64,000 nucleotides of DNA from Escherichia coli (GTDB lineage: Bacteria > Pseudomonadota > Gammaproteobacteria > Enterobacterales > Enterobacteriaceae), in NCBI RefSeq assembly GCF_048403405.1, contig NZ_CP183129.1, one strand, 5' to 3'. A program made the position numbers and the translations under genes. The notes beneath the pieces were generated by a model. The model was given only the letters and a program-made list of their open reading frames with translations. It was not told the DNA's origin and made no database searches. This document shows, in pieces, positions 11,127 to 31,569 of this stretch (position 1 is its first letter; each line of letters opens with the position of its first letter).

Positions 11127-11132
11127 ACCTCT

Positions 11133-13056: not shown

Positions 13057-13070
13057 GGTGTTTACTCCGT

Positions 13071-13849: not shown

Positions 13850-13852
13850 GCG

Positions 13853-14565: not shown

Positions 14566-14664
14566 GACTACCTCTGAAAAGTCGGGCGGTGGACGCCGGT
14601 GCAGTGTCAGGTGATTCACCCTCACTGACCGGCGTGCCGCCCTGGCGCGGGGCGCATTCGGTTG

Positions 14665-15408: not shown

Positions 15409-15411
15409 CGG

Positions 15412-16485: not shown

Positions 16486-16543
16486 AGTTTTTCCTGAAAT
16501 TAAGGGTTAATCGTGAAGGTTTTCCCGGACTGACTGACGCCGG

Positions 16544-17398: not shown

Positions 17399-17571
17399 TG
17401 TCAGGAGTCCTGAATAGTGATTAGAGGAGTCACATGTCGGCATCAGTTTCCCGACGATGCGCATCCTCCGCCATCAGTCCCGGATGGCTTATCACTGACA
17501 CAACAGCACCTTAGCGAATCGCAGGGCGCGACTCAGTAGCCTTGCCGTGTATTCATCACGGCGAGGTATTC
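17399..17571. promoter_or_regulatory. Divergent O/P intergenic region, expected site of the Ogr-dependent late promoters
   Basis: Position only (divergent late operons as in P2); partial dyad TGTCGG...CCGACG seen, but no confident TGT-N12-ACA match. Confidence 0.35.
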
Positions 17572-19344
17572 ATGACCATCACCACAGACACCACTCTTTT
17601 ACACGACCCGCGTCGTCAGGCGGCGCTGCTGTACTGGCAGGGGTTTTCCGTGCCGCAGATTGCCGCCATGTTGCAGATGAAACGCCCGACGGTGCAGAGC
17701 TGGAAACAGCGCGACGGCTGGGACAGCGTTGCCCCCATCAGCCGTGTCGAAATGAGTCTGGAAGCGCGGCTGACCCAGCTCATCATCAAACCGCAGAAAA
17801 CCGGCGGTGACTTCAAGGAAATTGACCTGCTGGGACGCCAGATTGAACGACTGGCACGGGTCAACCGCTACAGCCAGACCGGCAACGAGGCAGACCTTAA
17901 TCCGAACGTCGCTAACCGCAACAAAGGCGGGCGGCGCAAACCGAAAAAGAATTTTTTCAGTGACGAGGCCATCGAAAAGCTGGAGCAGATTTTCTTTGAG
18001 CAGTCTTTCGAATATCAGTTGCACTGGTATCGCGCCGGGCTTGAGCACCGCATCCGCGATATCCTGAAATCCCGCCAGATTGGCGCGACGTTTTATTTTT
18101 CCCGCGAGGCGCTGCTGCGCGCCCTGAAAACCGGTCATAACCAGATTTTTCTGTCGGCCAGTAAAACGCAGGCGTATGTGTTCCGCGAATACATCATCGC
18201 CTTTGCCCGTCTGGTTGACGTTGACCTGACCGGTGACCCGATTGTCCTGGGCAATAACGGCGCAAAACTGATTTTTCTCGGCACCAACTCCAACACCGCG
18301 CAGAGCCATAACGGCGACCTGTACGTCGACGAGATTTTCTGGATCCCGAATTTTCAGGTACTGCGTAAGGTGGCATCAGGTATGGCCTCACAGAGTCACC
18401 TGCGCTCGACCTATTTCTCCACCCCGTCCACGCTGGCACACGACGCCTACCCGTTCTGGTCGGGTGAACTGTTCAACCGGGGACGCGCCAGCGCCGCCGA
18501 ACGCGTGGAAATCGACGTCAGTCATAACGCCCTTGCCGGTGGGCTTCTCTGTGCGGACGGCCAGTGGCGACAGATTGTCACCATTGAGGACGCCCTGAAA
18601 GGCGGCTGCACGCTGTTCGACATTGAGCAGCTCAAACGCGAAAACAGCGCCGACGATTTTAAAAACCTGTTCATGTGTGAATTTGTTGACGACAAGGCGT
18701 CGGTGTTCCCGTTTGAGGAGCTGCAACGCTGCATGGTCGACACGCTGGAAGAATGGGAAGACTATGCGCCGTTTGCCGCAAATCCGTTCGGCTCCCGACC
18801 GGTATGGATTGGTTACGACCCGTCACACCGTGGCGACAGCGCAGGATGCGTGGTACTGGCACCGCCGGTGGTGGCCGGTGGCAAATTCAGGATCCTTGAG
18901 CGTCACCAGTGGAAAGGCATGGACTTTGCCACTCAGGCTGAATCCATCCGCAAACTCACCGAAAAATACAACGTCGAATACATCGGTATTGATGCCACCG
19001 GCCTCGGTGTCGGCGTGTTCCAGCTCGTGCGCTCGTTCTATCCCGCCGCGCGCGACATCCGCTACACGCCGGAAATGAAAACCGCAATGGTGCTCAAGGC
19101 AAAAGACGTCATCCGCCGTGGCTGTCTGGAATATGACGTCAGCGCCACCGACATCACCAGCTCGTTTATGGCTATCCGCAAGACCATGACCAGCAGCGGA
19201 CGCAGCGCCACCTATGAGGCCAGCCGCAGCGAGGAAGCCAGCCACGCCGACCTCGCCTGGGCGACCATGCACGCCCTGTTAAATGAGCCACTCACCGCCG
19301 GTATCAGCACCCCGCTGACATCCACCATTCTGGAGTTTTACTGA
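17572..19344 (+). CDS. P: Terminase large (ATPase) subunit gpP
   Basis: ATG at 17572 (MTITTDTTLL...), ~590 aa. Confidence 0.9.
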   Translation: MTITTDTTLLHDPRRQAALLYWQGFSVPQIAAMLQMKRPTVQSWKQRDGWDSVAPISRVEMSLEARLTQLIIKPQKTGGDFKEIDLLGRQIERLARVNRYSQTGNEADLNPNVANRNKGGRRKPKKNFFSDEAIEKLEQIFFEQSFEYQLHWYRAGLEHRIRDILKSRQIGATFYFSREALLRALKTGHNQIFLSASKTQAYVFREYIIAFARLVDVDLTGDPIVLGNNGAKLIFLGTNSNTAQSHNGDLYVDEIFWIPNFQVLRKVASGMASQSHLRSTYFSTPSTLAHDAYPFWSGELFNRGRASAAERVEIDVSHNALAGGLLCADGQWRQIVTIEDALKGGCTLFDIEQLKRENSADDFKNLFMCEFVDDKASVFPFEELQRCMVDTLEEWEDYAPFAANPFGSRPVWIGYDPSHRGDSAGCVVLAPPVVAGGKFRILERHQWKGMDFATQAESIRKLTEKYNVEYIGIDATGLGVGVFQLVRSFYPAARDIRYTPEMKTAMVLKAKDVIRRGCLEYDVSATDITSSFMAIRKTMTSSGRSATYEASRSEEASHADLAWATMHALLNEPLTAGISTPLTSTILEFY

Positions 19345-20363
19345 TGAGCAAGAAAAAAGGGAAAACACCGCAACCTGCGGCAAAAAAAATGACCGCCAGC
19401 GCCCCGAAAATGGAGGCATTCACCTTTGGCGAGCCGGTGCCGGTACTCGACCGCCGTGACATTCTGGATTACGTCGAGTGCATCAGTAACGGCAGATGGT
19501 ATGAGCCGCCGGTCAGCTTTACCGGTCTGGCGAAAAGCCTGCGTGCTGCCGTGCATCACAGCTCGCCGATTTACGTCAAACGCAATATTCTGGCCTCGAC
19601 ATTTATCCCGCATCCGTGGCTTTCCCAGCAGGATTTCAGCCGCTTTGTGCTGGATTTTCTGGTGTTCGGTAATGCGTTTCTGGAAAAGCGTTACAGCACC
19701 ACCGGTAAGGTCATCAGACTGGAAACCTCACCGGCAAAATATACCCGCCGTGGCGTGGAGGAGGATGTTTACTGGTGGGTGCCGTCCTTCAACGAGCCGA
19801 CAGCCTTCGCGCCCGGCTCCGTGTTTCACCTGCTGGAGCCGGATATCAATCAGGAGCTGTACGGCCTGCCGGAATATCTCAGCGCCCTTAACTCTGCCTG
19901 GCTGAATGAGTCGGCCACGCTGTTCCGCCGCAAGTATTACGAAAACGGCGCTCATGCCGGATACATCATGTATGTCACCGATGCCGTGCAGGATCGCAAC
20001 GATATCGAAATGCTTCGCGAAAACATGGTGAAGTCGAAAGGCCGCAACAACTTTAAAAACCTGTTTCTCTATGCCCCACAGGGGAAAGCCGACGGCATTA
20101 AAATTATCCCCCTCAGTGAAGTGGCGACGAAGGACGATTTTTTTAATATCAAAAAAGTCAGCGCCGCAGATCTCCTGGACGCACACCGCATCCCCTTTCA
20201 GTTGATGGGCGGTAAGCCGGAGAATGTCGGGTCACTAGGAGATATTGAAAAAGTGGCAAAGGTCTTTGTCCGCAATGAACTCACTCCATTACAGGAGAGA
20301 ATAAAGTCAATAAATGAATGGTTAGATATGGAAGTCATAAAATCCCTTGATTATAACTTATAA
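19344..20363 (+). CDS. Q: Portal protein gpQ
   Basis: 339 aa, ATGA overlap with P stop; last ~100 bp look AT-rich. Confidence 0.9.
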   Translation: MSKKKGKTPQPAAKKMTASAPKMEAFTFGEPVPVLDRRDILDYVECISNGRWYEPPVSFTGLAKSLRAAVHHSSPIYVKRNILASTFIPHPWLSQQDFSRFVLDFLVFGNAFLEKRYSTTGKVIRLETSPAKYTRRGVEEDVYWWVPSFNEPTAFAPGSVFHLLEPDINQELYGLPEYLSALNSAWLNESATLFRRKYYENGAHAGYIMYVTDAVQDRNDIEMLRENMVKSKGRNNFKNLFLYAPQGKADGIKIIPLSEVATKDDFFNIKKVSAADLLDAHRIPFQLMGGKPENVGSLGDIEKVAKVFVRNELTPLQERIKSINEWLDMEVIKSLDYNL

Positions 20364-20375
20364 GTAAATATATAA

Positions 20376-20402
20376 AGTTGGCGGAATGCAATCCCGCCAA
20401 CT
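20376..20402. terminator. Hairpin AGTTGGCGG-AATGCAATC-CCGCCAACT between convergent Q and cargo operon; likely bidirectional terminator
   Basis: 9-bp perfect stem read from the sequence in the 42-bp gap between the stop codons. Confidence 0.6.
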
Positions 20403-20405
20403 TAA

Positions 20406-21113
20406 CTATATATACTTCCTTTTTACTCTACTTAATTCTATCACTGATGAGGAGTGACAAAATGACAAATTAATAGTATCGATATAATCCAAAATTTGAC
20501 TCTCAACCTCAATAAAAATATTTTTGGGCCCATTACTAATCGATATACCGATTTCATCCAAAACAGCCATCATTTTTCTCTGATGAGTTTTATATTTATA
20601 GTCTTTATTTTCCTCTGTAATATGTGCATTGGCTTCCTCAATAACACATTTGATTCTAGATATTATTTCTAGATAATCTCTCGAAACAGATATATCACCG
20701 CCTTGCGCTTCAGGGAACATAACCCTATACCATCTAAAAAAATTAACTTTCTCTGGATAGATGCTACTTCTTTTAGTTAACTCAGCACTTGCAAATTCTC
20801 TAAACATCGTCAGATGACTAGTGTAATTACTATTATTATTATTTTTAACTCCAGCGTTATATGTCATCAAAGCAATCATAACACCAAAAACGGTAACAAA
20901 AGTTGTTATAAGCCATCCAAACGCCTGAAAATACATTACTATACCAGATGTTTTTTCCGCAAAAAATTTTAAGCACTGGCTATCGAAGCATATATCACGC
21001 TCATATAGCTTTTCATTCTGAATAGTTTCAAAAAGAGAAATTAGCGAAAAAATCAAAAAAAGAGCTGACGACACACCGACAATATATTTGAGAAGTCTAA
21101 TATTTGCATTCAT
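20406..21113 (-). CDS. Cargo protein with two N-terminal transmembrane helices, translationally coupled to the upstream reverse transcriptase; candidate effector
   Basis: ATG at 21113 overlaps RT stop (ATGA); 235 aa; hydrophobic segments IVGVSSALFLIFSLISLF and GIVMYFQAFGWLITTFVTVFGVMIALMTY; AT-rich by eye. Confidence 0.65.
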   Translation of the reverse strand: MNANIRLLKYIVGVSSALFLIFSLISLFETIQNEKLYERDICFDSQCLKFFAEKTSGIVMYFQAFGWLITTFVTVFGVMIALMTYNAGVKNNNNSNYTSHLTMFREFASAELTKRSSIYPEKVNFFRWYRVMFPEAQGGDISVSRDYLEIISRIKCVIEEANAHITEENKDYKYKTHQRKMMAVLDEIGISISNGPKNIFIEVESQILDYIDTINLSFCHSSSVIELSRVKRKYI

Positions 21114-22336
21114 AATGGTTTTAAAGATGCCAATCTAGATTTAAAACACTCCAGTTTTTCTTTAAATGATTCAGAGCGAGTAAGAATAATCATCTTATAT
21201 CTCGTCAAATCATATTTTCTTTTATACCAATGTTTATTTTGATTACCTTTCGAATACGACAACTCTAAACTTTTTATAGCTGCATCAATCACAGCAACAT
21301 CTCTTTTAGATGGCATCGGTTTTATTGCCTGCAACTGTTTCTTGAATGATTCATATTTTTCATGCCCAACACGGCCAAGCTTATTCACTCTCCCCATACA
21401 TCTATTGAATTCTTTTCTGTATGCAACACTTGTTTTTGTGTTATTTTTTGCCGCCAGTAATTTCAAATTATGTATAGATGCCCTGATTCTTTTGACTTCA
21501 TCGGATGGTAGTCGAGGTGAGTCATAGTCAACTCTTAAACCATGTACTTTTATAGGTTCAGATGAACAGTGAAATATTTTTGTTTTGTGCTTATTTATCG
21601 GCAAGTCATGCTCAGAAAGCATCCTCTCTATATGGCTTTGCATTTGAGAAAAATCATAATTACTTATTTTAGATGACACGGTAATATCATCTACCAAACG
21701 CGTATAAACAAGTCCTTTCCTCTGCGCACGTCTTACCACATCCCCTTCAACAGCGAATAAACACAAAGTTGCTATATAGCTTGATGTTAAGGCCCCCTGT
21801 ACGACAAAATCATCCTTAGTACATATATCCACCAAGTATTCAAGAGCCTCATCCTTAATATGCAATATCTCCTCAAACACGCTCCTAACCAGATCTCTAT
21901 GGATATTATCGAAAAAATTACTTATATCCACCTTGAGAACTGTTTTTGCTCCACAATGAGCCTTTGCACATGAAACATAGTCACGTTTGACATTAGAATT
22001 TAAAACATCATTTTTACTGGGAACTGAACCAAACAAAAATGAAGGAAAAACAACCAATTCCTTAAAAATACGTTTATTAATTCTACTCTGTAATAATCTC
22101 ATTTTAGGATGTAGGGAGTAGACAATCCGTTTGCTTCCGTCAATTTTGGGAATTTCTTTTAGAGTATATTTCTCATCTAATGATAATTCTGCAATAGCTT
22201 TAAGCTCTTCAACAGAAATCGATAAAGCCTTTGACAACTTTTCAAGTGTTGTGATAGGAGCATTGGATTTGCTGTATGGTTTAAATTTATCCATAAACAT
22301 ACCATTCAAATTCAAAGTTACGTACGGTCTTCCCAT
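21110..22336 (-). CDS. Reverse transcriptase (retron-like or Abi-type), defence-associated candidate
   Basis: RT motifs in the translation: IPKIDGSKRIVY (fingers), VLKVDISNFFDNI (motif A), QGALTSSYIA (motif B-like), YTRLVDDITVSS (YxDD; DNA ~21671-21706), and KVHGLRVDYD resembling the retron VTG region. Start uncertain: ATG candidates at 22336, 22300, 22294; the supplied ORF extends to a TTG at 22384. Confidence 0.8.
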   Translation of the reverse strand: MGRPYVTLNLNGMFMDKFKPYSKSNAPITTLEKLSKALSISVEELKAIAELSLDEKYTLKEIPKIDGSKRIVYSLHPKMRLLQSRINKRIFKELVVFPSFLFGSVPSKNDVLNSNVKRDYVSCAKAHCGAKTVLKVDISNFFDNIHRDLVRSVFEEILHIKDEALEYLVDICTKDDFVVQGALTSSYIATLCLFAVEGDVVRRAQRKGLVYTRLVDDITVSSKISNYDFSQMQSHIERMLSEHDLPINKHKTKIFHCSSEPIKVHGLRVDYDSPRLPSDEVKRIRASIHNLKLLAAKNNTKTSVAYRKEFNRCMGRVNKLGRVGHEKYESFKKQLQAIKPMPSKRDVAVIDAAIKSLELSYSKGNQNKHWYKRKYDLTRYKMIILTRSESFKEKLECFKSRLASLKPL

Positions 22337-22625
22337 ACTCAAGGGTGGAACAGCAGAGATGCTTACATCAACAATTGTCAGCAACAGCCTCTGCTATCTT
22401 TCGACCGTACGTAATGTCGTCGGCTACGGCACCATCGTAGTTGACGACGGTGGGGCCTCGCTGATAGGTCCATAGTGGACGCTTTTTTGTAAAAGCAAAA
22501 ACTGACAATTTAATGTTGTTGACTGCCGCATACCAAGCGAATCGCTGGTGCGCTAAGAATAATGCAACAAAAAAATAAGAATTTCAACCGGGTAACTGCA
22601 AGCCAGCGACATCGTTTAGCGCGCA

Positions 22626-22644
22626 GTGCTTTCCCCGCCTCGCC
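22626..22644 (-). other. cos: cos cohesive-end site (19 nt, GGCGAGGCGGGGAAAGCAC on the minus strand)
   Basis: Exact match to the P2 cohesive-end sequence as remembered; embedded in a locally GC-rich noncoding stretch between the RT gene and the 612-aa gene. Confidence 0.75.
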
Positions 22645-22805
22645 CGCCCGCTTCGTGGGGCGGTTTTAATGCAGGTGCAATACCGCTTTTGAGCCACGCC
22701 CGTCCTGGCGGACGCACGGCCGGAACATGCAACTCCGGCACATGCAAAACCATGCACATATTGCACGCAGAAAGATAAATGCCAAAATACCTAAATCAAC
22801 TTCCA

Positions 22806-24644
22806 TTAATCAGCCAGATAAGGTTCAACTTTATCTTCCCATACACTAAATAAAGGCAAACAAGTTAAATAAAAGATAAAGACACAGGCAAAAACTGAAG
22901 TTGGTTGATAACAATGATTTACAGTATACCTGCCATGAGCCATCGTGTGTCTAATTGCAGCACCACCTTTCATATTGAACAATAAATCCATAGTCAATAC
23001 ATGATCACTATCAAAAACACCTTCCATTTCACTCCTATAATTTGCAAGCATTTGAGATAGGCTAGTAGCCTCCTCAAAAAGCGACACATCTATTTTCGTT
23101 GTTTCTTTTCTTCTTAATTCTAAAATCCATCTAATTGAATTCTCCAATTGCGGCAATAACAAATAACAGGCAGACACATAATCTCCCTGCCAAAGCTTAT
23201 AAAACCCCAAAGAAAATATTTCTGCATACCCAGGTGGAACAAATGCACTTTGTTGTGAGATTGGGTCAAATGTATTTTCATTTAATGAATACCTAGCCAA
23301 CACACTTTGCCTAACGACTTCAAACTCACCACAAACATAGACCTGATGCTCAATGTTACTAGTTCTTAAATAATTTGCACAAGCATCATTTAAACTTATA
23401 TCCCCCGCAGGATCCAAAGGTGAACGACTTGCTACAACGCGCCCTCTATCATCATAAACAACCGTTTCACTCATATTAAGAAAAAAATGTTTTTTAGCAT
23501 CGGAACGAGCTCTTTCCATAATTTCACTGGCACTTACAATCTTAAATCTAGCAATTAAAGTTTTAATTACCCTTGAGAAATCCAATTGATTATAAACATG
23601 CTCTTTCTGAGCGATAACATCACTAAGATCCATTGGTATTGCAAAGAAGTGCATTTCATCATTGATTTGATCTCGAATAGAATTCAATTCCTCTCTAATC
23701 TTTTTAATTTCTTCATTCATTCCACCAATTGCTCTAAATTCGCCAAGAGCAACTCTTAACCAATGAGCCTTCAATATTGAAGATGAAGACTGTTCAAATT
23801 GAGCCAATGTTATTTCTGACGCTTTAATTCTGCACCGTCTTCCTTGCTCTTCCATATCGTTTTTAACATATAATTCAGACGCAAAATAAAACAATTTTTT
23901 CACTGCATCAAAATAAGACGCTCCACAATGCTCATCAGCTATCTTTTCTGCATTCTCAGCCAATTGCAAGGGACACAATAAATTATTCTTATAAAGAATT
24001 TCAGAAACTCTTAATACACCGGTGAATATACCAGAGTCTATTAATACATGATATAACCTTAATGTCGAATCAACTATCCCCCCTTGTAGTTGTTTTTTCC
24101 TGCCAATAAGCATGCGCGATATTGCGATACCTCTATCCAAGCAGTCAACAACATCAAAAATATGGATATCACCTGACTCTTGTTTTTCTATTAAAGTATC
24201 GCAAGCATCATTAACCATTAGAGAATATGACTCTATTGCTTTATTGGCAGAGTCTATATCCTTACGGTTATTTATCCATAAAACATCACACACCCTAGAT
24301 ATAATATAAGGATTATCGGAGTTTTCTTTAATACAAGTTAATATTGTTGAAAAACTCTCCTTATAATCTGAAGGCCTATAGCCCCTCTCAGGATAGAGAA
24401 TGATTTTTGGCTCAAAACCGATAATATCACCAGACCTAGAAAATTTAAAATTAAACAACGCACGTAATAAATAGCAAAGCCGCCAAGAACTTACATCGTT
24501 TTTTAGCTTGTAAGATGACAACAACTGAACAAAATAAGACTCCATATCAAAATGAGAATAACTTCTTGGCGATGATAATATACTGGCGTATTCACTTTTT
24601 TTAAAATCATCAACTGAAATAGAAAAAACATCAAACTCGCTCAT
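22806..24644 (-). CDS. Cargo protein of unknown function (612 aa) with C-terminal HEPN-like R-x4-H motif (AIRHTMAHGRY); candidate abortive-infection RNase
   Basis: ATG at 24644 with GGTGAGGA upstream; no P-loop seen; AT-rich by eye; occupies the P2 tin/old position between A and cos. The HEPN call rests on one short motif. Confidence 0.6.
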   Translation of the reverse strand: MSEFDVFSISVDDFKKSEYASILSSPRSYSHFDMESYFVQLLSSYKLKNDVSSWRLCYLLRALFNFKFSRSGDIIGFEPKIILYPERGYRPSDYKESFSTILTCIKENSDNPYIISRVCDVLWINNRKDIDSANKAIESYSLMVNDACDTLIEKQESGDIHIFDVVDCLDRGIAISRMLIGRKKQLQGGIVDSTLRLYHVLIDSGIFTGVLRVSEILYKNNLLCPLQLAENAEKIADEHCGASYFDAVKKLFYFASELYVKNDMEEQGRRCRIKASEITLAQFEQSSSSILKAHWLRVALGEFRAIGGMNEEIKKIREELNSIRDQINDEMHFFAIPMDLSDVIAQKEHVYNQLDFSRVIKTLIARFKIVSASEIMERARSDAKKHFFLNMSETVVYDDRGRVVASRSPLDPAGDISLNDACANYLRTSNIEHQVYVCGEFEVVRQSVLARYSLNENTFDPISQQSAFVPPGYAEIFSLGFYKLWQGDYVSACYLLLPQLENSIRWILELRRKETTKIDVSLFEEATSLSQMLANYRSEMEGVFDSDHVLTMDLLFNMKGGAAIRHTMAHGRYTVNHCYQPTSVFACVFIFYLTCLPLFSVWEDKVEPYLAD

Positions 24645-24797
24645 TCCTCACCTTTAAAGCACTTAACAAACAATCATGGTAAACAATACCAAACTGCAAG
24701 CAACGATTAAATACAGAAAACTCTTTCTGTCGAGATTTTTCAATAACACTAAATATATACAGTACGAAATTATCTAATATTGCGTGAATTTTTGCCA

Positions 24798-27083
24798 TTA
24801 TGTCCACTCCATTACTGTTGAGAATCCCGGCCACTCATCAATGACCGGATACGTGAATTTTTTCCCGCCATAATTTATGGTCGCTCCCCGAGCCAGCGCC
24901 TCAAGCTCCCATCGCTGTGGCCTGATACCGTTCTGAGCAAGGTCAACGCGGATACGGGTAATTTGCATTCGTTCCGACCGGGTCAGTCTGGCCGATGGCG
25001 CTATTTCATGCGGTTTTAACGGGCTTCCGTTTCTTTGCTGACGGTTTGGTCTTCTCAGACCGTGTTTTAATGCACCTCTGAGCGCCCTCACGACCTCCTG
25101 GTCATTCCATTCGATAACACCGTCATCTACCAGATTAAGCACTGCTACGGCGTGTTCAGAAGGCGTGGGAGCCGGTGACGAAGTATCACCACCGGTGAGC
25201 TTTCCACAGTTATTGACAGGACTCCGAGGCGCGGCGATGCCGCTTTTTAAAGTCAACGGCTCAACGACCGGAACTTTCGGCACAATGCGCCAGTCCGTCG
25301 TTCTGGTGATATGAATATGACGCGTGCCGAGATGCGGCGCGTAAATGCCGACCACTCTCTCGACTTCTTCCTCGTACTCGTTAACGTCATCCGACGGGCT
25401 ACGGGCGACCCTGACAGTCTGACAATCGCGCGGGACATTTGCCCCGCCCTGCGCGCTGATATACAACGCAAAATCACCACTGTCTGCGGCGGCGCGTGCA
25501 GCCTCGACGCGTTCGTCAAACTCATCAGCAATGCTGACGCCGCGAGGCAATTTGCGTAGTTCACGGTAAGCCCCCATTGTCGGCAGGCCAACCGTTTTAA
25601 ATTGCGGGATACGCCACGTTGACGCCCATGCGGTAACAGCCGCTGCAGTGTCTTTCAGCGGCCTGCCGGTATCGTTATCGAGCTGACCATCCAGTGCATA
25701 GCCGTCGATATTTTTTGAGATGTATTTCGCGATATATCCCGCAGCACCGCCCCGGTTAAGGTGTTTCGCCTGAAAACGGTTTCGCGCGGCTCCTCTTTCG
25801 TCGCCATCCTCTTTGAGCGCATAGCGACGCATGATTTCGATAATCTGGTTACGCTGGCGTGGATTACAAAAAAGCATCATATGCCAGTGCGGCGTTCCGT
25901 CGTGGTGTGGCTCGACGACTCGCAAACCGTAGACCTGTAAATCATTATCCTTGAATGCCGTGCGCATCAGGCTCCAGATACGGCAGAGATAACGCTGCGC
26001 ATCCTTCGGATTAAATGCCTCATCATTCCAGCCGTGATTAAGCTGCACGGTTTTACTTTCTCCTTTTCCGACCTGACGTGTCGGGTGATACTTTGACGGC
26101 GCGGTCAGCGTGATAAACATCCCCACATCACCCTCTGCGGCGGCGTAACGCTCAATACCGGCGATGGTGTTCATCAGCTCCATCCGGCGAATTTCAGGAT
26201 TAGAAATACTGCCCATCACCTTACTGATAAGGTCGATGCGCTCGCCGGTTTCCCTGTTTTCGAGGTCACACGATTTAAGAAATTCCAGATTTGCCTGGCG
26301 GCGTGCACGCACATCACGAATGGCGTGTTTACTGGCATAAGGAGAACGATCTTTATTGACCTCCCCGACAGCAATCAGTAACGCCTCATGCCAGCGCATA
26401 CGCTGGCCTTTAAGCTGATGAGTCCACCACTCATCGTTAAACAGGCGGGCAATGGCAGAATATGCCTGCCTCGTGGTCATCTGTCCTTTACGGTATTTTT
26501 TCCAGTAGAGCGGGGAAATATTGAAAGCACGTGCAGCGCCAGCAACATGACTATACAGGTGAGCCTGCGCCTCATCCGTAAACAGCGATTCTTTTTCGCC
26601 ATGCGCATCCACCCAGGCATCGCTGAGTTCCTCATACATCATGAAAAGCTGCGATGAGATACGGGCGGCAAACTTTTTCAGCTCCTTGTCATTCATTCCA
26701 GGCAGGCGCGCATAGTGGTCACGCTCTGCCAGAAACAGCAACGACGCGTCGGTGTTCATTTCATGGCGCTGATTCACGCGCTCAATGCGCGGCCATAAAC
26801 GACGCTGAAAAGTGGATGTGAGGAAATAAAACCCGTGTACCGGGCTTTTATTGCGCCGGATGTAGTCATAGCGTGAAGTAAACAGCGAGCGCAAAAAGTA
26901 AGGCAGGCGGTTAATCGTGGATAAAACCCCTTGCACCTGACGCATCTCGTCACGTGTAAGGGGTCTTTCGCGCCCGACGGCCTCGCGTGGCGCGTTCCAT
27001 GCATAAGCACCGGTAAACGTCTTACCGGTGCCTGCGGCAAATGCTGACGGAGGGACAAAACGCCCGGAGGCTTTAACGGCCAT
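24798..27083 (-). CDS. A: Replication initiation protein gpA (rolling-circle nickase)
   Basis: ATG at 27083 (MAVKASGRFVPPSAFAAGTGK...), 761 aa; the supplied ORF extends to an upstream TTG. Confidence 0.9.
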   Translation of the reverse strand: MAVKASGRFVPPSAFAAGTGKTFTGAYAWNAPREAVGRERPLTRDEMRQVQGVLSTINRLPYFLRSLFTSRYDYIRRNKSPVHGFYFLTSTFQRRLWPRIERVNQRHEMNTDASLLFLAERDHYARLPGMNDKELKKFAARISSQLFMMYEELSDAWVDAHGEKESLFTDEAQAHLYSHVAGAARAFNISPLYWKKYRKGQMTTRQAYSAIARLFNDEWWTHQLKGQRMRWHEALLIAVGEVNKDRSPYASKHAIRDVRARRQANLEFLKSCDLENRETGERIDLISKVMGSISNPEIRRMELMNTIAGIERYAAAEGDVGMFITLTAPSKYHPTRQVGKGESKTVQLNHGWNDEAFNPKDAQRYLCRIWSLMRTAFKDNDLQVYGLRVVEPHHDGTPHWHMMLFCNPRQRNQIIEIMRRYALKEDGDERGAARNRFQAKHLNRGGAAGYIAKYISKNIDGYALDGQLDNDTGRPLKDTAAAVTAWASTWRIPQFKTVGLPTMGAYRELRKLPRGVSIADEFDERVEAARAAADSGDFALYISAQGGANVPRDCQTVRVARSPSDDVNEYEEEVERVVGIYAPHLGTRHIHITRTTDWRIVPKVPVVEPLTLKSGIAAPRSPVNNCGKLTGGDTSSPAPTPSEHAVAVLNLVDDGVIEWNDQEVVRALRGALKHGLRRPNRQQRNGSPLKPHEIAPSARLTRSERMQITRIRVDLAQNGIRPQRWELEALARGATINYGGKKFTYPVIDEWPGFSTVMEWT

Positions 27084-27348
27084 ATGAGCCAAAAGCCTCT
27101 GAACAACGCTTGCTGAGTTGCTCAACCTGCGCGTTTAAATCAGCAAAAGACTTTGCGCTTCCGGTCAGAATATCGTGATGCATCAGGCCGGAAACGAGCT
27201 GGCTTAATTTCGGGTAATAACCAACCACCGCCAGCCATTCCTGACCGGCGTTTTTACCGCTTTCCGCTCTCTTTTTCTCGTGGAGAATAAACTGAAAGCT
27301 GTCACTGGTAACGACATAACGTTCGCCAATTTCAATACGAATGCTCAT
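27073..27348 (-). CDS. Small early protein at the P2 orf83 position
   Basis: 91 aa, position only. Confidence 0.5.
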   Translation of the reverse strand: MSIRIEIGERYVVTSDSFQFILHEKKRAESGKNAGQEWLAVVGYYPKLSQLVSGLMHHDILTGSAKSFADLNAQVEQLSKRCSEAFGSYGR

Positions 27349-27569
27349 GCCATTCTCCGGTAATGTTTGTTTTTTGCTTCAAAGACTGACTGACAGGAAA
27401 CACAACGCGTGGCTGACGGATAAGCCGCACGACGGGCAGCAGGTATTGGCGCGTCACACTCTTCGCAAACCAGCGCAGAAGCACCGCAATGTTTTACCCT
27501 TGCCGCGTTAATCTGGCGCTCCAGTAATTCAGCCTGTTGTTCCTGAATAAAATCTACGTTGTCCGGCAT
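27345..27569 (-). CDS. TraR/DksA-type C4 zinc-finger protein at the P2 orf82 position
   Basis: 74 aa with C-x2-C ... C-x2-C pattern (CGASALVCEECDAPIPAARRAAYPSATRCVSC). Confidence 0.65.
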   Translation of the reverse strand: MPDNVDFIQEQQAELLERQINAARVKHCGASALVCEECDAPIPAARRAAYPSATRCVSCQSVFEAKNKHYRRMA

Positions 27570-27571
27570 TA

Positions 27572-27871
27572 TCAGCTCCTTTTATCGTTAAGTTTCCTGG
27601 ATACATCAGCGCAATAACTGGCAAGTTCTGTCGTTAATTTTGTCAGTTCATCCACTGAGGAAATTTGCTTGTGGAATACAGCGCGTTTAACAAGTAAATT
27701 GACCACATCAGACAGGAGGTTTAATTCATTCTGATAAATCGCGATAACAGATTCAGTGATGTCGCGTTTTTCTTTATCAAGACAAAGTTGAATAAGAGAC
27801 AAATCGCCATTTTTCATAACGGCGATTTTTAAGGCGTTATTCAGTAATACAACTGAATGAGAACAGGACAT
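27572..27871 (-). CDS. Small early protein at the P2 orf81 position
   Basis: ATG at 27871 overlapping upstream stop (ATGA); position only. Confidence 0.45.
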   Translation of the reverse strand: MSCSHSVVLLNNALKIAVMKNGDLSLIQLCLDKEKRDITESVIAIYQNELNLLSDVVNLLVKRAVFHKQISSVDELTKLTTELASYCADVSRKLNDKRS

Positions 27872-28095
27872 CAAAGTACCTCCCCGCGAGACAATCCGAT
27901 ATTGTGAAATTTTTCCGACTCCTGACTGAGCAGCTCGACTATCTCCACGCGGGATAACTCCGCCTTTGTGATATGGCGAATCATGGCGTCAAGATGAGAA
28001 GAAAAGCGCGTCGCAGCGTCGGCCTGTGCTTCGGTTCTGGCCTGTTGCAGCAGTAATGCGTATTTACCGCACTGATTTTCAGAAACTGTATGCAT
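27871..28095 (-). CDS. Small early protein at the P2 orf80 position
   Basis: 74 aa, position only. Confidence 0.45.
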
Positions 28096-28158
28096 GACTT
28101 TCTCCAGGCAAAAAGAAGCCCCGCACGATTAAGTGCGTTAAAAACTCTGGTTAATTAC

Positions 28159-28659
28159 TTAATGCAGATATTGCTCTGGTTTTACCGACGTCAGAATTGT
28201 CGGTGCATACTCAAACAGACTGAATAATTCACGTAATGCACGGAATAAAGCATCACGCCAGTAACATGATTCTTCATTAATTCGCCAGTATGGCTGGTTA
28301 AATTCTTTTTCTGTCAGTCGTGCGTGCATAAATAAAGTGCGACGCTGACTGACTGTTAAAAAACTAATATATGCATACTCACTTGCGCCAACCTGACGGC
28401 GTTTTGAGAATGCCCCACGCAATTCATCAATTGCACAAACCAGCCGTTCACGTTCGACGTCGTTCATTTCTTCAAAACGCATCGTTGCGTGACGCTGTTT
28501 TAACTGCGCATGGAAGCAAACCGTTAGCCGTTCACGTTCCATCATCTGATTATAATAATCGCATGTCTCCTGCCAGCGAGGGACGGCCAGATGCTTACCA
28601 ATTATCCGGCGCATAGCTGCTGGCTGTTTTTCAACAAGATTGAGCGTCATCACTGTCAT
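28159..28659 (-). CDS. B: Replication protein gpB
   Basis: 166 aa, same length and position as P2 B. Confidence 0.7.
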   Translation of the reverse strand: MTVMTLNLVEKQPAAMRRIIGKHLAVPRWQETCDYYNQMMERERLTVCFHAQLKQRHATMRFEEMNDVERERLVCAIDELRGAFSKRRQVGASEYAYISFLTVSQRRTLFMHARLTEKEFNQPYWRINEESCYWRDALFRALRELFSLFEYAPTILTSVKPEQYLH

Positions 28660-28913
28660 TTCCAGACCCTCCGGCTTTTCAGAAAGGTCAGAGCCTTCTT
28701 TAACGGACTCTGTTTTTTGGTGCGGATAATGATTCCCTTACGCCCCTTACCGTGGGTAATGGTGAAGTCAATCGCCCTTGGGCTTTCGTTACGCAATAAC
28801 TGAGCAATACAACGAGGCTCGTTCATCCTTTCCACCTTAAGCCGCACGGCCATGTCTTGATTTGCTGTAACTAATGCGATTTTTCCAGTCATGCCATTAT
28901 GTCGGAGCTTCAT
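28656..28913 (-). CDS. Small early protein at the P2 orf78 position
   Basis: ~85 aa, position only. Confidence 0.45.
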   Translation of the reverse strand: MKLRHNGMTGKIALVTANQDMAVRLKVERMNEPRCIAQLLRNESPRAIDFTITHGKGRKGIIIRTKKQSPLKKALTFLKSRRVWK

Positions 28914-29193
28914 CAACTAGCTGGGCTGCGTACTTGTCCCACTCACGGCGATTAATCCATAACTCAGCATGACCGCCCGGCTTTAATGGGTCCGTCATAT
29001 AAAAGGCTGGTAACTTGCCTGCTTTCGCCATTTCAGCAACAGCGCGAGGCGTCTTACCGATGTAAAGAGCAAAACCCTCTTTCGAGAGCAAATCCGACGG
29101 TGCGGCTGCAAGTTTGATGTCACATTTTTTACTTTTTGTGAGATCAGATACTTTTTCTCCAACATCGTTATTCATTTCTGATCCAATACTCAT
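28897..29193 (-). CDS. cox: Cox (excisionase / early repressor of Pc)
   Basis: Motif FALYIGKTPRAVAEMAKAGKLPAFYMTDP resembles P2 Cox HTH region; ATG at 29193 with GAGGAT upstream; first gene of the early operon, divergent from C. Confidence 0.7.
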   Translation of the reverse strand: MSIGSEMNNDVGEKVSDLTKSKKCDIKLAAAPSDLLSKEGFALYIGKTPRAVAEMAKAGKLPAFYMTDPLKPGGHAELWINRREWDKYAAQLVDEAPT

Positions 29194-29297
29194 TTTGATA
29201 TCCTCAACTTTGGTGCCATTCAACCAGAGCTATTTGAAGCCGCTCTGCGTTGTTCTGGCGTGTCGCATACAACATAAATTACGAGATACGACAATTC
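29194..29297. promoter_or_regulatory. C/cox intergenic switch region (expected divergent Pe and Pc promoters and operators)
   Basis: Position between divergent cox and C; promoter elements not individually mapped. Confidence 0.5.
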
Positions 29298-29609
29298 ATG
29301 TCAAATACACAAATCACATCTCAAGCAGAGAAACTCGCACTTATTCGGGAATCAGAAAGAATGACAAGGAAGCAAGTTGCTGAATTAACTGGAATTAACT
29401 ACAACACCTATGCTGGATATGAGCAGGGAAAAGTAAAGATGTCTTTTGACGCAGGTATGAAATTTTTCAAGCCAGAAAGATTTCGCAAGTACCGTGACTG
29501 GTTCATGTTTGATGAAACTGATCCCGCTGGCGGACAAATAGCCCCGGCGCTCGCGCACATTGGGCAAGACTCAACAACCTTGCACCACTCAGACCAAAAG
29601 ACTGGCTGA
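29298..29609 (+). CDS. C: Immunity repressor C
   Basis: ATG at 29298 (MSNTQITSQAEKLALIRESE...); C-terminal GQIAPALAHIGQD...SDQKTG resembles P2 C. Confidence 0.8.
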   Translation: MSNTQITSQAEKLALIRESERMTRKQVAELTGINYNTYAGYEQGKVKMSFDAGMKFFKPERFRKYRDWFMFDETDPAGGQIAPALAHIGQDSTTLHHSDQKTG

Positions 29610-29702
29610 CGATTTATTCAGCATATGTGTGCAGTAAATGTACGAAAGAAAATTGCATTAATTTTCAAGTAGTAGAAGTAAACAGCGTCATCGGAGGGCT
29701 TT

Positions 29703-30698
29703 ATGTCTATTAAAAAGCTCGATGATGGTCGTTATGAAGTGGACGTCAGACCGCAGGGTGCAGATGGAAAACGTATCAGGCGGAAATTTAAAACTAAAGG
29801 TGAAGCTCAAGCATTCGAACGTCATGTGCTGGTTAACTACCACAACAAAGAGTGGCTGGAGAAGCCAGCCGACCGCCGAACTCTTACAGAGTTGTTAGGC
29901 AGATGGTGGATATATCACGGAAAATCACATGAGCGTGGAAATATTGAACGGGGGCGTTTGACGACAATAATCGCCAAATTTGCAGAAATGGGGGTGTCCA
30001 GAGCTGACCAGTTAACAAAGAAAACGATAACTGATTATCGAGTTGTAATGATGAACGATGGTCTAAAACCAGCCAGCGTAAATCGGCATCTGGCAATAAT
30101 GAGCGGGATGTTCACCAAGTTAATTGACGCCGGTGAATACCACTCTCACAACCCGTTCCGTGAGGTTAAGCGGTTACGTGAAGCTGTTACAGAAATGGCT
30201 TTTTTGTCCAGTGAAGAGATTACGCGGCTGTTATCCATGCTTGATGGTGATGAGTTAAATGCAACTCTGGTCTGCCTTTCTACTGGTGGACGCTGGAGTG
30301 AAGTGTCTAATTTGAAAGCTGAACACATCATTAACCAGATGGTTACGTTTATGAAAACTAAAAACGGAAAGCGCAGGACAATTCCCGTTTCGCAGGACCT
30401 GATTAAAAGGATCAAGACCAAAAATTCAGGCAGGCTTTTTAATGCCAGTTACTACAAAGTGCGTAACGCTCTCAGGGAAGTAAAACCCGATTTACCTGAC
30501 GGACAAGCAGTACATGTTTTGAGGCATACATTTGCCACACATTTTATAATGAATGGAGGTAACATAATCACATTGCAGCGCATCCTGGGTCATTCTAACA
30601 TTCAGCAAACTATGACCTACGCACACTTTGCACCGGATTTCTTACAAGATGCTGTGACTCTTAACCCGGTGTCAGGAATGTCCATAATGCGTCCATAA
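29703..30698 (+). CDS. int: Tyrosine integrase (P2 Int family)
   Basis: 331 aa; MSIKKLDDGRYEVDVRP..., HxxR and C-terminal catalytic region (LRHTFATHF...GHSNIQQTMTYAHF); last prophage gene before the host junction. Confidence 0.9.
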   Translation: MSIKKLDDGRYEVDVRPQGADGKRIRRKFKTKGEAQAFERHVLVNYHNKEWLEKPADRRTLTELLGRWWIYHGKSHERGNIERGRLTTIIAKFAEMGVSRADQLTKKTITDYRVVMMNDGLKPASVNRHLAIMSGMFTKLIDAGEYHSHNPFREVKRLREAVTEMAFLSSEEITRLLSMLDGDELNATLVCLSTGGRWSEVSNLKAEHIINQMVTFMKTKNGKRRTIPVSQDLIKRIKTKNSGRLFNASYYKVRNALREVKPDLPDGQAVHVLRHTFATHFIMNGGNIITLQRILGHSNIQQTMTYAHFAPDFLQDAVTLNPVSGMSIMRP

Positions 30699-30729
30699 AC
30701 CAGAGTTAACTAGAGCCAATTGAAGCGAT

Positions 30730-31527
30730 ATGAGTAATTTAACTAATTGTAATACAACAGAAAATACCGCTACGGCGGGGGCTACCAAGTCAGTTATTGG
30801 TCGCATTCACTCCTTTGAATCCTGTGGAACCGTAGACGGCCCGGGTATTCGCTTTATCACCTTTTTCCAGGGCTGCCTGATGCGCTGCCTGTATTGTCAT
30901 AACCGCGACACCTGGGACACGCATGGCGGTAAAGAAGTTACCGTTGAAGATTTAATGAAAGAGGTGGTGACCTATCGCCACTTTATGAACGCTTCCGGCG
31001 GCGGCGTTACCGCATCCGGCGGTGAAGCAATCCTGCAAGCTGAGTTTGTTCGTGACTGGTTCCGCGCCTGCAAAAAAGAAGGCATTCATACCTGTCTGGA
31101 CACCAACGGTTTTGTTCGTCGTTACGATCCGGTGATTGATGAACTGCTGGAAGTAACCGACCTGGTAATGCTCGATCTCAAACAGATGAACGACGAGATC
31201 CACCAAAATCTGGTTGGAGTTTCAAACCACCGCACGCTGGAGTTCGCCAAATATCTGGCGAACAAAAATGTGAAGGTGTGGATCCGCTACGTTGTTGTCC
31301 CAGGCTGGTCTGACGATGACGATTCAGCGCATCGCCTCGGTGAATTTACCCGTGATATGGGCAACGTTGAGAAAATCGAGCTTCTCCCCTACCACGAACT
31401 TGGCAAACACAAATGGGTGGCGATGGGTGAAGAATACAAACTTGATGGTGTTAAACCACCGAAGAAAGAGACCATGGAACGCGTGAAAGGCATTCTTGAG
31501 CAGTACGGTCATAAGGTAATGTTCTAA
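30730..31527 (+). CDS. pflA: Pyruvate formate-lyase activating enzyme, with prophage-junction-derived N-terminal extension
   Basis: From residue 21 ([22 protein letters not shown]..., radical-SAM CxxxCxxC) it matches E. coli PflA as remembered; the canonical ATG is AAG here and the frame opens at an upstream ATG (30730). Confidence 0.9.
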
Positions 31528-31539
31528 TTTCCCCGTAAA

Positions 31540-31569
31540 GCGGCAACTTTTTTGAGTTGCCGCTTTTTT
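31540..31569 (+). terminator. Rho-independent terminator after pflA
   Basis: GCGGCAAC-loop-GTTGCCGC followed by TTTTTT. Confidence 0.8.

What the first reader, a model, noticed from the sequence alone, without database searches (positions are those of the whole stretch)
30699..30790. Prophage junction coincides with the pflA start: canonical ATG replaced, new 20-codon N-terminal extension
Seen in sequence: the integrase stop (30698) is only 32 bp from an ATG (30730) that opens a frame reading [20 protein letters not shown] and then [17 protein letters not shown].... Established knowledge (from memory): E. coli PflA begins [14 protein letters not shown], so here the native ATG is AAG and upstream sequence is not the pflB-pflA intergenic region. 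Inference: the att core overlaps the 5-prime end of pflA, the prophage displaces pflA from its native upstream region, and the gene is reconstituted with a phage-derived 5-prime end and probably phage-derived transcription signals. pflB is expected beyond the far end of the prophage.
Basis: partly seen in the sequence, partly recalled or inferred. Interest (0 to 1): 0.5.

Follow-up and report, generated by a model that had tools for sequence, protein, structure and literature searches.

The report
P2-like prophage rebuilds pflA start
A P2-like prophage sits inside the first codons of the E. coli gene pflA, removes its start codon and supplies a new start plus 19 extra residues; the integration site is already published, but the same phage-derived leader is also found, without a prophage, in Salmonella pflA.

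Summary
Window 30699-30801 is the attR junction of a 35.6-kb P2-like prophage integrated in pflA. The identical attP/attB core is 13 bp, GTCAGTTATTGGT (30789-30801), which is nucleotides 3-15 of pflA. The phage arm reads CAA|G where the host reads CAAT|G, so the native ATG becomes AAG. An in-frame phage ATG at 30730 opens a 265-codon PflA, which RefSeq already annotates. pflB, the native pflA upstream region and the attL junction lie at the far prophage end in a near-identical genome.

The site matches the published PhiD145/PhiD160 site (MG1655 coordinate 950293), so the element is not new. About 393 of 5426 complete E. coli genomes carry the junction, as do Klebsiella and E. albertii.

What I did not find in the searchable literature:
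- The 20-codon leader stays open and in frame in 12 diverged variants, while its amino-acid sequence drifts.
- A strong ribosome-binding motif (GGGGG) is stranded in front of the dead AAG.
- Prophage-free "fossil" junctions (integrase remnant plus leader) occur in Salmonella, next to a SopD-family gene, and in two other lineages. This argues that the extended PflA works.

Which start codon and which promoter are used remains inferred.

The parts
1..30788 (.). Right-hand ~30.8 kb of a 35.6-kb P2-like (Peduovirus) prophage. Its left end (attL, next to pflB) lies about 4.8 kb beyond the start of the window.
   Evidence: The window matches E. coli MS 69-1 NZ_CP146675.1 with 3 mismatches in 32,761 bases. 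The two cores in that genome are 35,623 bp apart. The annotation shows P2-type tail, head, lysis, gpA, Cox, C and Int genes.
29298..29609 (+). Immunity repressor C-like gene (helix-turn-helix), immediately upstream of int on the same strand. It is the presumed first gene of the Pc operon that would read through int into pflA.
   Evidence: PGAP annotation in MS 69-1 (L114 39038-39349, offset 9740) and the ORF list. The operon structure is inferred from phage P2 biology (my own knowledge), not tested.
29703..30698 (+). P2-type tyrosine integrase (331 aa).
   Evidence: ORF list. Pfam families Int_N and Phage_integrase hit identical or near-identical proteins. It is 53% identical to P2 Int and 55% to WPhi Int, and 98-100% identical to Int of 20 Peduovirus genomes.
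30680..30698 (+). Two direct repeats GTCCATAA (30680-30687 and 30691-30698). Their reverse complement, TTATGGAC, resembles the P2-type Int arm-site consensus tgTGGaCa. They overlap the int stop codon.
   Evidence: Read directly from the sequence. The consensus is from Nilsson et al. 2011, PMC3448106. The block is conserved in all relatives. Binding was not tested.
30699..30729 (+). 31-nt spacer between the int stop and the new start codon. It is phage DNA with no terminator and no usable Shine-Dalgarno motif.
   Evidence: Anti-SD pairing is only -2.1 kcal/mol, but the local structure is very open (-2.7 kcal/mol against a window mean of -15.0, sd 5.9).
30730..30789 (+). Phage-encoded 20-codon leader ([20 protein letters not shown]). 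Its last codon, AAG (30787-30789), occupies the position of the native ATG.
   Evidence: The leader is present in attP of free phages P24A7b, vB_YpM_46 and D8. It is open, in frame and 20 codons long in 12 diverged variants. AlphaFold2 predicts it as disordered: residues 1-18 have pLDDT below 50.
30777..30781 (+). GGGGG Shine-Dalgarno-like motif 5 nt upstream of the dead AAG codon, a stranded ribosome-binding site.
   Evidence: Anti-SD duplex is -8.6 kcal/mol, against -6.4 for the native K-12 site. The homologous motif precedes a retained ATG in the Rahnella-type prophages and in one E. coli lysogen.
30789..30801 (+). 13-bp att core GTCAGTTATTGGT, the crossover region, equal to nucleotides 3-15 of native pflA.
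   Evidence: It is the only stretch identical in attL, attR, attP and attB, and it occurs once in the window.
30730..31527 (+). Reconstituted pflA (265 codons plus stop). Codons 21-265 are host-derived, native PflA residues 2-246.
   Evidence: Annotated as WP_000067979.1. This exact protein is seen on at least 1000 contigs, the look-up's counting limit.
31537..31566 (+). Intrinsic terminator after pflA, the first terminator-like site on the + strand downstream of the phage C-int genes.
   Evidence: 13-bp stem followed by a T-run.

Best explanation
Window 30699-30801 is the attR junction of a PhiD145-type P2-like prophage that integrates by tyrosine-recombinase crossover within a 13-bp core, GTCAGTTATTGGT. 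That core is nucleotides 3-15 of pflA.

The A and T of the host ATG lie just outside the core, and the phage arm reads CAA|G instead of CAAT|G. Integration therefore removes the native start codon, ribosome-binding site and upstream region of pflA and moves them to attL. The phage arm between int and the core carries an ATG exactly 60 nt upstream, in frame, with no stop codon. The lysogen therefore encodes a full PflA whose initiator Met is replaced by a 20-residue, probably disordered leader.

Most likely (inferred) this protein is made and is active. Translation would start at ATG 30730, which has no Shine-Dalgarno motif but lies in an unusually unstructured AU-rich region 31 nt after the int stop. 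Transcription would come from the prophage, as read-through of the repressor-integrase (C-int) transcript, because no terminator intervenes.

The phage thus repairs the gene it interrupts. In some lineages the repair patch has outlived the prophage.
For: Shown:
- attL, attR, attP and attB share only the 13-bp core.
- attP in three free phage genomes contains the ATG and the leader, which there forms a 27-codon ORF ending just beyond the core (sequence).
- pflB plus the native intergenic region plus ATG sit at attL.
- The junction occurs in 393 of 5426 complete E. coli genomes, in E. albertii, and in Klebsiella pneumoniae with a Klebsiella-type PflA body.
- The published site of PhiD145/PhiD160 is MG1655 coordinate 950293 (PMC3448106). 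With pflA at 950340-951080 in NC_000913.3 and the roughly 777-nt offset between the old and new numbering (my memory), this is nucleotide 11 of pflA, inside the core.

Evidence that the leader is translated and the fusion works:
- Sampling by integrase relatives, which is blind to the state of the pflA frame, gave 8 distinct junctions (Int 77-100% identical). All have an ATG at -60, a stop just upstream and an open 20-codon frame.
- Over 12 distinct variants, frame 0 has 0 stops and frames 1 and 2 have 25 and 28. Substitutions show almost no codon periodicity (339/397/489 by codon position, against 79/58/294 in the first 60 nt of pflA proper). So the open frame is kept, not the peptide sequence.
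- Prophage-free fossils keep an int 3' remnant plus the leader plus a non-ATG codon at the native position. In Salmonella the order is focA-pflB-SopD-family gene-pflA(265 aa), with two very different leaders. The other two fossil types are L105 and L108.
- Salmonella makes formate through PFL (established knowledge), so a leader-bearing PflA should be functional.
- AlphaFold2 gives residues 1-18 pLDDT below 50 and a confident PflA body. The body is identical to PDB 3C8F.
- There is no terminator between int and pflA.
Against: - ATG 30730 has essentially no Shine-Dalgarno pairing (-2.1 kcal/mol), so expression may be low.
- No convincing sigma-70 promoter was found near the junction. The two weak matches are fewer than the shuffles give, and nothing conserved appears in the fossils.
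- The fossil variants were found through a protein search, so they are biased towards open frames.
- The first ~22 nt of the leader are conserved at the DNA level. That may reflect binding sites for IHF, Cox or Int in the attP arm rather than coding.
- I could not show that the fossil is universal in Salmonella.
- There are no expression, protein N-terminus or phenotype data.
- The identity of this phage's Int with that of PhiD145 could not be checked, because those sequences are not in the collections.
Confidence: 0.72

Rival explanations
1. Near-native start. Ribosomes use the strong GGGGG motif (30777-30781) and initiate at a non-canonical codon at or near the old start, either AAG 30787 or ATT 30796. 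This would give a PflA of about native length, and the upstream ATG and leader would be irrelevant.
For: The motif pairs with the anti-SD at -8.6 kcal/mol, better than the native K-12 site, and lies 5 nt before AAG. It is kept in nearly all E. coli-type arms (GGGGG, or GGGTG in L096). The homologous motif serves a real ATG in the Rahnella-type prophages and in E. coli Z1323CEC0015, where attR retains the T.
Against: AAG is not a recognised bacterial initiation codon (established knowledge). ATT lies 14 nt from the motif, too far, and is itself a poor start. The Salmonella fossils have lost the G-run and have no ATG, GTG or TTG near the old start, yet they keep the upstream ATG and an open frame. 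The next in-frame ATG downstream (native Met32) lies inside the CX3CX2C cluster motif, so starting there would delete its first cysteine.
Confidence: 0.1
2. Insertional attenuation. The junction leaves an intact-looking ORF, but pflA is silent or strongly under-expressed in lysogens, with no native promoter and no ribosome-binding site. Lysogens would be partly PFL-deficient, and the open frame would simply be recent and not yet decayed.
For: The native promoter, SD and ATG are displaced to attL. ATG 30730 lacks an SD. No promoter was detected. The E. coli junctions are almost invariant, with 388 of 393 at 99% identity or more, so within E. coli there has been little time for decay.
Against: The arrangement is common (about 7% of complete E. 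coli genomes and hundreds of Klebsiella contigs). The frame stays open across Int lineages only 77% identical. The leader persists in prophage-free genomes where pflA has no other start. No terminator separates the constitutively needed C-int genes from pflA.
Confidence: 0.12
3. Incidental ORF. The leader sequence is shaped only by its role as the attP P-arm, carrying binding sites for IHF, Cox and Int. Its being open and in frame is a historical accident that happens to rescue pflA, not an adaptation.
For: The most conserved part, ATGAGTAAYTTAACTRATTGTA, is conserved as DNA between arms whose integrases are only 77% identical. By base composition alone each variant has a 15-36% chance of being open. 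The Rahnella-type arms keep the upstream ORF even though they also keep the native ATG.
Against: There are 0 stops in frame 0 against 25 and 28 in the other frames over 12 variants. There are no frame-breaking length changes despite heavy substitution in the 3' two-thirds of the leader. The fossils no longer need attP function but still keep the frame and the ATG.
Confidence: 0.15

Closest known systems
P2-like coliphages PhiD145 and PhiD160 and their host attachment site (Karlsson et al. 2006, J Bacteriol 188:3923; Mandali et al. 2010, Virology 408:64; listed in Nilsson et al. 2011, PMC3448106)
   Same: P2-type integrase and Cox/C switch. The integration site is given as MG1655 coordinate 950293, which falls at nucleotide 11 of pflA, inside the 13-bp core found here. 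The same paper reports a Pectobacterium prophage (PhiECA29) at the same site.
   Different: I could not compare sequences with PhiD145 or PhiD160, because they are not in the collections. The open-access text does not mention pflA, the lost start codon or the leader. The two primary papers are not held, so they may discuss it.
dusA-specific integrases of prophages and genomic islands (Farrugia et al. 2015, NAR, PMC4482086)
   Same: A tyrosine-recombinase element targets the 5' end of a protein-coding housekeeping gene and replaces that 5' end with element-borne sequence. The gene stays open with an altered N-terminus.
   Different: It is a different integrase family and a different target. There the element supplies a substitute structural beta-strand. 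Here the host protein is complete from residue 2, and the phage adds only a start codon plus a disordered 19-residue tail.
Lambdoid phage 21 and element e14 integrating in icd (from memory)
   Same: Integration inside a metabolic gene, with the element carrying a substitute copy of the displaced gene end so that the enzyme stays functional.
   Different: Those replace the 3' end (C-terminus) with a near-synonymous copy. Here the 5' end, the start codon and the expression signals are replaced by unrelated sequence.
Phage P2 itself (locI site) and WPhi
   Same: Same genome architecture, with convergent int and ogr flanking attP, P2-type arm repeats and 53-55% Int identity.
   Different: P2-type phages are reported to integrate mostly between genes and only rarely within non-tRNA genes (PMC3448106). 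This core lies inside a coding sequence. A relative with 82% identical Int sits next to a fumarase gene and a mannose-6-phosphate isomerase gene (fumA/manA by my reading) instead of pflA.

Membership tests
P2-like (Peduovirus) prophage with a P2-type integration module | P2 gene order, with int and ogr convergent on attP and a Cox / C switch next to int | tested here: met
   Annotations of EFF60 and MS 69-1. attP between int and ogr in free phages.
P2-like (Peduovirus) prophage with a P2-type integration module | Tyrosine recombinase related to P2 Int | tested here: met
   53% identity to P2 Int over 98% of its length, E = 5e-109. Pfam Int_N and Phage_integrase hit relatives that are 87% or more identical.
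P2-like (Peduovirus) prophage with a P2-type integration module | Arm-type direct repeats resembling tgTGGaCa on both sides of the core | tested here: inconclusive
   Two GTCCATAA repeats lie in the P arm (30680-30698), and GTCCACA and GACCACA in the P' arm. They resemble the published consensus. Binding was not tested.
PhiD145/PhiD160 attachment-site class | attB at MG1655 950293 (old numbering) | tested here: met
   The core is nucleotides 3-15 of pflA. pflA starts at 951080 in NC_000913.3. With the ~777-nt offset between versions (from memory), 950293 is nucleotide 11.
PhiD145/PhiD160 attachment-site class | Sequence identity of int and attP with PhiD145 (AM158280, AM159077, AJ298559) | not testable with these tools
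   Those records are not in the phage collection, and the primary papers are not held.
Pyruvate formate-lyase activating enzyme (PflA, radical SAM) | Full-length identity with the characterised enzyme, including the CX3CX2C cluster motif and the N-terminal GRIHSxES / DGPGIR motifs | tested here: met
   Residues 21-265 are identical to PDB 3C8F chain A residues 1-245.
Pyruvate formate-lyase activating enzyme (PflA, radical SAM) | Enzyme is expressed and activates PflB in this lysogen | not testable with these tools
   Only indirect evidence is available: conservation of the open leader and the fossil junctions.
Integrative elements that rebuild the 5' end of their target gene (dusA-type behaviour) | The element-borne sequence restores an open reading frame with a start codon after integration | tested here: met
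   The ATG and the 20 codons are in attP. The resulting ORF is 265 codons. The frame is open in all 12 variants.
Integrative elements that rebuild the 5' end of their target gene (dusA-type behaviour) | Integrase belongs to the DusA-associated integrase family | not tested
   No direct comparison with a dusA-associated integrase was made. The integrase here is of the P2 type. The resemblance claimed is in behaviour only, and membership of that integrase family is not claimed.

The most novel reading that the evidence does not exclude
The leader is an evolved, portable gene-repair cassette of a whole lineage of pflA-targeting P2-like phages, and it has repeatedly become a permanent part of host genes. 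On this reading Salmonella enterica PflA carries a phage-derived start codon, N-terminal tail and 5' region, left by an ancient PhiD145-like prophage. The only other survivor of that prophage would be the islet holding the SopD-family effector gene (sopD2 by my recollection of the LT2 map). A T3SS effector locus and the expression signals of a core fermentation gene would then share a phage origin.
Probability: 0.4. Interest if true: 0.6.

Novelty: new member of a known kind. Interest (0 to 1): 0.42.

Why it matters
PflA is the only activase for pyruvate formate-lyase, the central enzyme of enterobacterial mixed-acid fermentation. About 7% of the complete E. coli genomes searched, many Klebsiella assemblies and at least some Salmonella encode a PflA whose start codon, N-terminus and probably promoter come from a phage.

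If the fusion is fully active, this is a clean natural example of a phage that carries a patch for the gene it interrupts. It also shows such a patch outliving the phage, and it shows that PflA tolerates an N-terminal tail.

If expression is altered, lysogeny would tune anaerobic metabolism and tie pflA expression to the prophage repressor-integrase operon.

There is also a practical point for annotation and pangenome work. The 246-aa and 265-aa PflA forms are the same gene, and the difference between them marks this prophage or its scar.

Tried and rejected
- I looked for attL inside the window. The core occurs only once there, because the window starts inside the tail genes. attL was recovered from EFF60 and from MS 69-1.
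- I checked whether the prophages PhiECO1 (E. coli HS) and PhiECO5 (UTI89) from Nilsson 2011 are at pflA. They are not: they lie at rcdA/ybjL and serS/dmsA.
- The IMG/VR scan with the integrase gave 80 loci, but almost all are trimmed at the int stop, so they were useless for the junction. I used exact-protein contig look-ups instead.
- The species-representative genome scan returned only E. albertii, Rahnella ecdela and a 513-bp contaminant-like contig.
- Literature searches combining pflA with P2-like, prophage, attB or sopD2 found nothing relevant. Two apparent hits were 'pFLAG' plasmid names. Karlsson 2006 is not held. Mandali 2010 did not appear in any search and I did not try to fetch it.
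- Promoter scans of the junction and of two fossils gave nothing above the shuffled expectation, and nothing conserved.
- I considered that the native ATG might be restored in many lysogens. Only 1 of 5426 genomes has it.
- I considered that the ORF might start at the next downstream ATG (Met32 of native PflA). I rejected this because it would remove the first cluster cysteine and the conserved N-terminal motifs.

Full report
**1. What is at the coordinates**

The + strand carries a 331-codon integrase ORF at 29703-30698. A 31-nt spacer follows, and then an ATG at 30730 opens a 265-codon ORF ending at 31527. The product begins [20 protein letters not shown] and continues [17 protein letters not shown].... 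Residues 21-265 are identical to crystallised E. coli PflA (PDB 3C8F/3CB8), which begins SVIGRIH.

Aligned with a K-12 strain, identity starts at the G of the native ATG. K-12 reads ...GGAGAAACACCGCAATGTCAGTT and the window reads ...GGGGCTACCAAGTCAGTT. The native start is therefore AAG at 30787-30789, and the upstream DNA is unrelated to the pflB-pflA intergenic region.

**2. It is a prophage attR, and the core is defined**

The window is almost identical to E. coli MS 69-1, with 3 mismatches in 32,761 compared bases. There, and in strain EFF60, the order is ycaO-focA-pflB-[attL]-ogr-D-U-T...Q-(cargo)-A-B-cox-C-int-[attR]-pflA-ycaM. This is a complete P2-like prophage.

- attL reads ...CACCGCAAT GTCAGTTATTGGT GACATTTTTTGA....
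- attR reads ...GGGGCTACCAA GTCAGTTATTGGT CGCATTCAC....
- Three free Peduovirus genomes with 98-99% identical int (P24A7b, vB_YpM_46, D8) give the intact attP...GGGGCTACCAA GTCAGTTATTGGT GACATTTTTTGA... This lies between int and ogr, which converge on it.

So attP x attB recombination within the 13-bp core GTCAGTTATTGGT explains both junctions. That core is window 30789-30801, or nucleotides 3-15 of pflA. The two cores are 35,623 bp apart in MS 69-1.

In the free phage the ATG opens a 27-codon [30 protein letters not shown], read from the sequence. At attL the native pflA upstream region, SD and ATG now drive an 8-codon stub, MSVIGDIF*.

**3. Why the start codon is lost**

The host reads CAATG at the left edge of the core and the phage reads CAAG. 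The T lies outside the stretch of perfect identity, so attR inherits the phage version.

One genome of 5426 (strain Z1323CEC0015) has attR with CAATG. There PGAP annotates the native 246-aa PflA directly after the phage arm. This shows what the phage GGGGG motif (30777-30781) can do. It pairs with the 16S rRNA 3' end at -8.6 kcal/mol, better than the native site at -6.4, and lies 5-6 nt from the old start. In the other roughly 392 lysogens this motif faces AAG and is stranded.

**4. Prevalence and host range**

The 113-nt junction is present at 95% identity or more in 393 of 5426 complete E. coli genomes, and 388 of them are at 99% or more. A broader 601-nt query gave 404 genomes. The exact 265-aa protein is on at least 1000 contigs, the look-up's counting limit.

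E. albertii carries it. Klebsiella pneumoniae has the identical leader fused to a Klebsiella-type PflA body, with Cox-C-Int upstream; the index lists that protein in 487 blocks of the collection.

**5. The site is already published**

Nilsson et al. 2011 (PMC3448106) list phages PhiD145 and PhiD160 as integrating at MG1655 coordinate 950293, and a Pectobacterium prophage as sharing that site. They cite Karlsson et al. 2006 and Mandali et al. 2010.

pflA is at 950340-951080 (minus strand) in NC_000913.3. The older numbering is about 777 nt lower (from memory), which puts 950293 at nucleotide 11 of pflA, inside the core.

That paper's text never mentions pflA. No open-access paper in the library holds both 'pflA' and 'P2-like' in a relevant sense. 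Karlsson 2006 is not held, and I did not try to fetch Mandali 2010. The element and its site are therefore known. Whether the consequence for PflA has been described, I cannot tell.

**6. Is the leader used?**

ATG 30730 is the only canonical in-frame start upstream of the conserved PflA N-terminus. An in-frame TGA lies three codons before it. The next in-frame ATG downstream is native Met32, inside the CX3CX2C motif.

The site has almost no SD (-2.1 kcal/mol). But the -30 to +40 region is very unstructured, at -2.7 kcal/mol against -15.0 (sd 5.9) for 70-nt windows across the locus. It also lies 31 nt after the int stop. Both features are known to permit initiation (established knowledge).

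The comparative evidence is stronger.

- I sampled loci by integrase similarity, which does not depend on the state of pflA. This gave eight distinct junctions, with Int 77-100% identical. All had an ATG at -60, an upstream stop and an open 20-codon frame.
- Protein-search hits raised the total to 12 distinct leaders. Frame 0 has no stop, while frames 1 and 2 have 25 and 28.
- Pairwise differences by codon position are 339/397/489, nearly flat. The adjacent pflA codons give 79/58/294. Selection therefore keeps the frame open but not the peptide, as expected for a tolerated, unstructured tail.
- AlphaFold2 agrees. Residues 1-18 have pLDDT below 50, and strand beta-1 starts at residue 24.

The Rahnella-type prophages (Int 77% identical) keep both the upstream ATG and the native ATG, the latter with GGGGGA 3 nt upstream. 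This is probably the older state.

**7. Fossil junctions**

Several genomes have the leader but no prophage.

- Salmonella: focA-pflB-SopD-family gene (319 aa, opposite strand)-about 580 nt-pflA (265 aa). The leaders are MSNLNDCIKKENTAAAAEKK|PIIG or MSNLTDCITNESVAVTADKK|PVIG.
- The DNA upstream of the Salmonella leader is 70% identical over 249 nt to the window's int 3' end plus arm (E = 6e-23). It reads as a decayed ...LRHTFATHF.MNGGNI.TLQ.IL... integrase C-terminus.
- A Rahnella-like metagenomic lineage (L105) has pflB-431 nt-pflA(265), with an int remnant 74% identical over Int residues 269-311.
- A third lineage (L108) has the leader in yet another gene context.

In these genomes the codon at the native start position is AAG or GTG, and Salmonella has no ATG, GTG or TTG near it. 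Salmonella uses PFL for formate production (established knowledge). This is the best available argument that leader-bearing PflA is functional and that the phage-derived 5' region can drive it.

Three caveats apply. These loci were found through annotated proteins. I could not show that the fossil is universal in Salmonella. The suggestion that the SopD-family gene was phage cargo is speculation.

**8. Transcription**

On the + strand the first terminator-like site after the phage C gene is the pflA terminator at 31537-31566. In the free phage the int transcript would meet the bidirectional hairpin between attP and ogr (seen). After integration that hairpin is at attL. Read-through of the C-int lysogenic transcript into pflA is therefore the simplest model. 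It is inferred by analogy with phage P2 (my own knowledge).

One weak promoter-like match (TTAACC-16-CATAAT, 30661-30688) overlaps the arm repeats. It is no better than the shuffled expectation and is not conserved in the fossils.

**9. Comparison with known systems**

[quoted passage not shown] The icd-targeting phage 21 and element e14 replace a 3' end (from memory). By membership this is a P2-like phage of the PhiD145 attachment class.

The features specific to this case are:
- the complete retention of the host protein from residue 2;
- a leader that is a freely drifting tail rather than a structural substitute;
- the stranded SD motif;
- survival of the patch after prophage loss.

**10. 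Verdict**

The element and site are known, so novelty is modest. The conserved repair leader and its fossils in Salmonella and other Enterobacterales are worth a short follow-up, and the experiments needed are simple.

Noticed in passing
L103/L104 and L111-L113 (Salmonella contigs), e.g. L111 2455-4798: In Salmonella, pflB and pflA are separated by a SopD-family effector gene and about 580 nt that end in a decayed integrase 3' remnant plus the phage leader. Salmonella PflA is annotated as 265 aa, with AAG at the native start position. This looks like the scar of an ancient pflA-targeting P2-like prophage.
   Followed up: partly
L105-L107 and L108-L110 (metagenome-assembled contigs): Two more prophage-free fossils of the same junction. 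L105 has pflB-431 nt-pflA(265) with an int remnant and GTG at the native start position. L108 has a GntP permease gene upstream and GTG one codon before the K codon.
   Followed up: partly
L115 (E. coli Z1323CEC0015, NZ_CP148423.1 2634993-2635039): This is the only lysogen of 5426 genomes whose attR keeps the host T (CAATG). The native ATG then sits 6 nt after the phage GGGGG motif, and PGAP annotates the 246-aa PflA. It could be an alternative crossover point, a reversion or a sequencing error.
   Followed up: partly
window 20406-24644 (- strand): Cargo lies in the P2 hotspot between the portal gene and gpA. It comprises a retron Ec48-family effector membrane protein (20406-21113), a reverse transcriptase (21110-22294) and a DUF7380 protein (22806-24644). 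Only 5 complete genomes carry this exact combination.
   Followed up: partly
window 2354-3460 (+) and 3984-4985 (-): A DUF2634 protein and a Lit-family phage-exclusion protein are inserted between the tail sheath gene and the tail-fibre assembly gene. This is a second cargo or defence hotspot of the prophage.
   Followed up: no
window 10341-11126 (+): A 261-aa hypothetical gene lies in opposite orientation between the baseplate V gene and the virion morphogenesis gene. It is a possible moron.
   Followed up: no
window 31626-31736: Downstream of pflA the host genes ycaK and most of ycaN are missing. Only a 111-nt LysR-family remnant is annotated before ycaM. Other lysogens differ here, with ycaD directly after pflA or a ycaK remnant, so this flank is variable independently of the prophage.
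   Followed up: no
L114 4903-4929 (attL in MS 69-1, outside the window): At attL the native pflA upstream region, SD and ATG now precede an 8-codon stub, MSVIGDIF*, which reads into the phage P' arm. Just beyond it is the bidirectional hairpin that terminates ogr and int in the free phage.
   Followed up: no
L098 (metagenome contig, int at 2501-3496): An integrase 82% identical to the window's sits next to a fumarase gene and a mannose-6-phosphate isomerase gene (fumA/manA by my reading) rather than pflA. Integrases only 77% identical (Rahnella type) do target pflA. Site specificity does not track overall identity.
   Followed up: no
summary (three 'plasmid' records): Three of the 393 matches to the junction or attP query are on records labelled plasmid. 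These may be excised circular phage genomes assembled as replicons. I did not inspect them.
   Followed up: no
window 30538-30566 and the aligned blocks in L103, L105, L108, L111: Within the integrase 3' remnant, the block TTTTATAnTnAATnGAGGTAA is almost unchanged in all the fossils, although the gene is dead there. It may simply decay slowly, or it may be a retained expression signal for pflA.
   Followed up: no
L011 (Terrisporobacter mayombei assembly, 513-bp contig, coverage 0.84): This tiny contig carries a 99% identical fragment of this enterobacterial integrase. It is almost certainly contamination in that Clostridia assembly.
   Followed up: no
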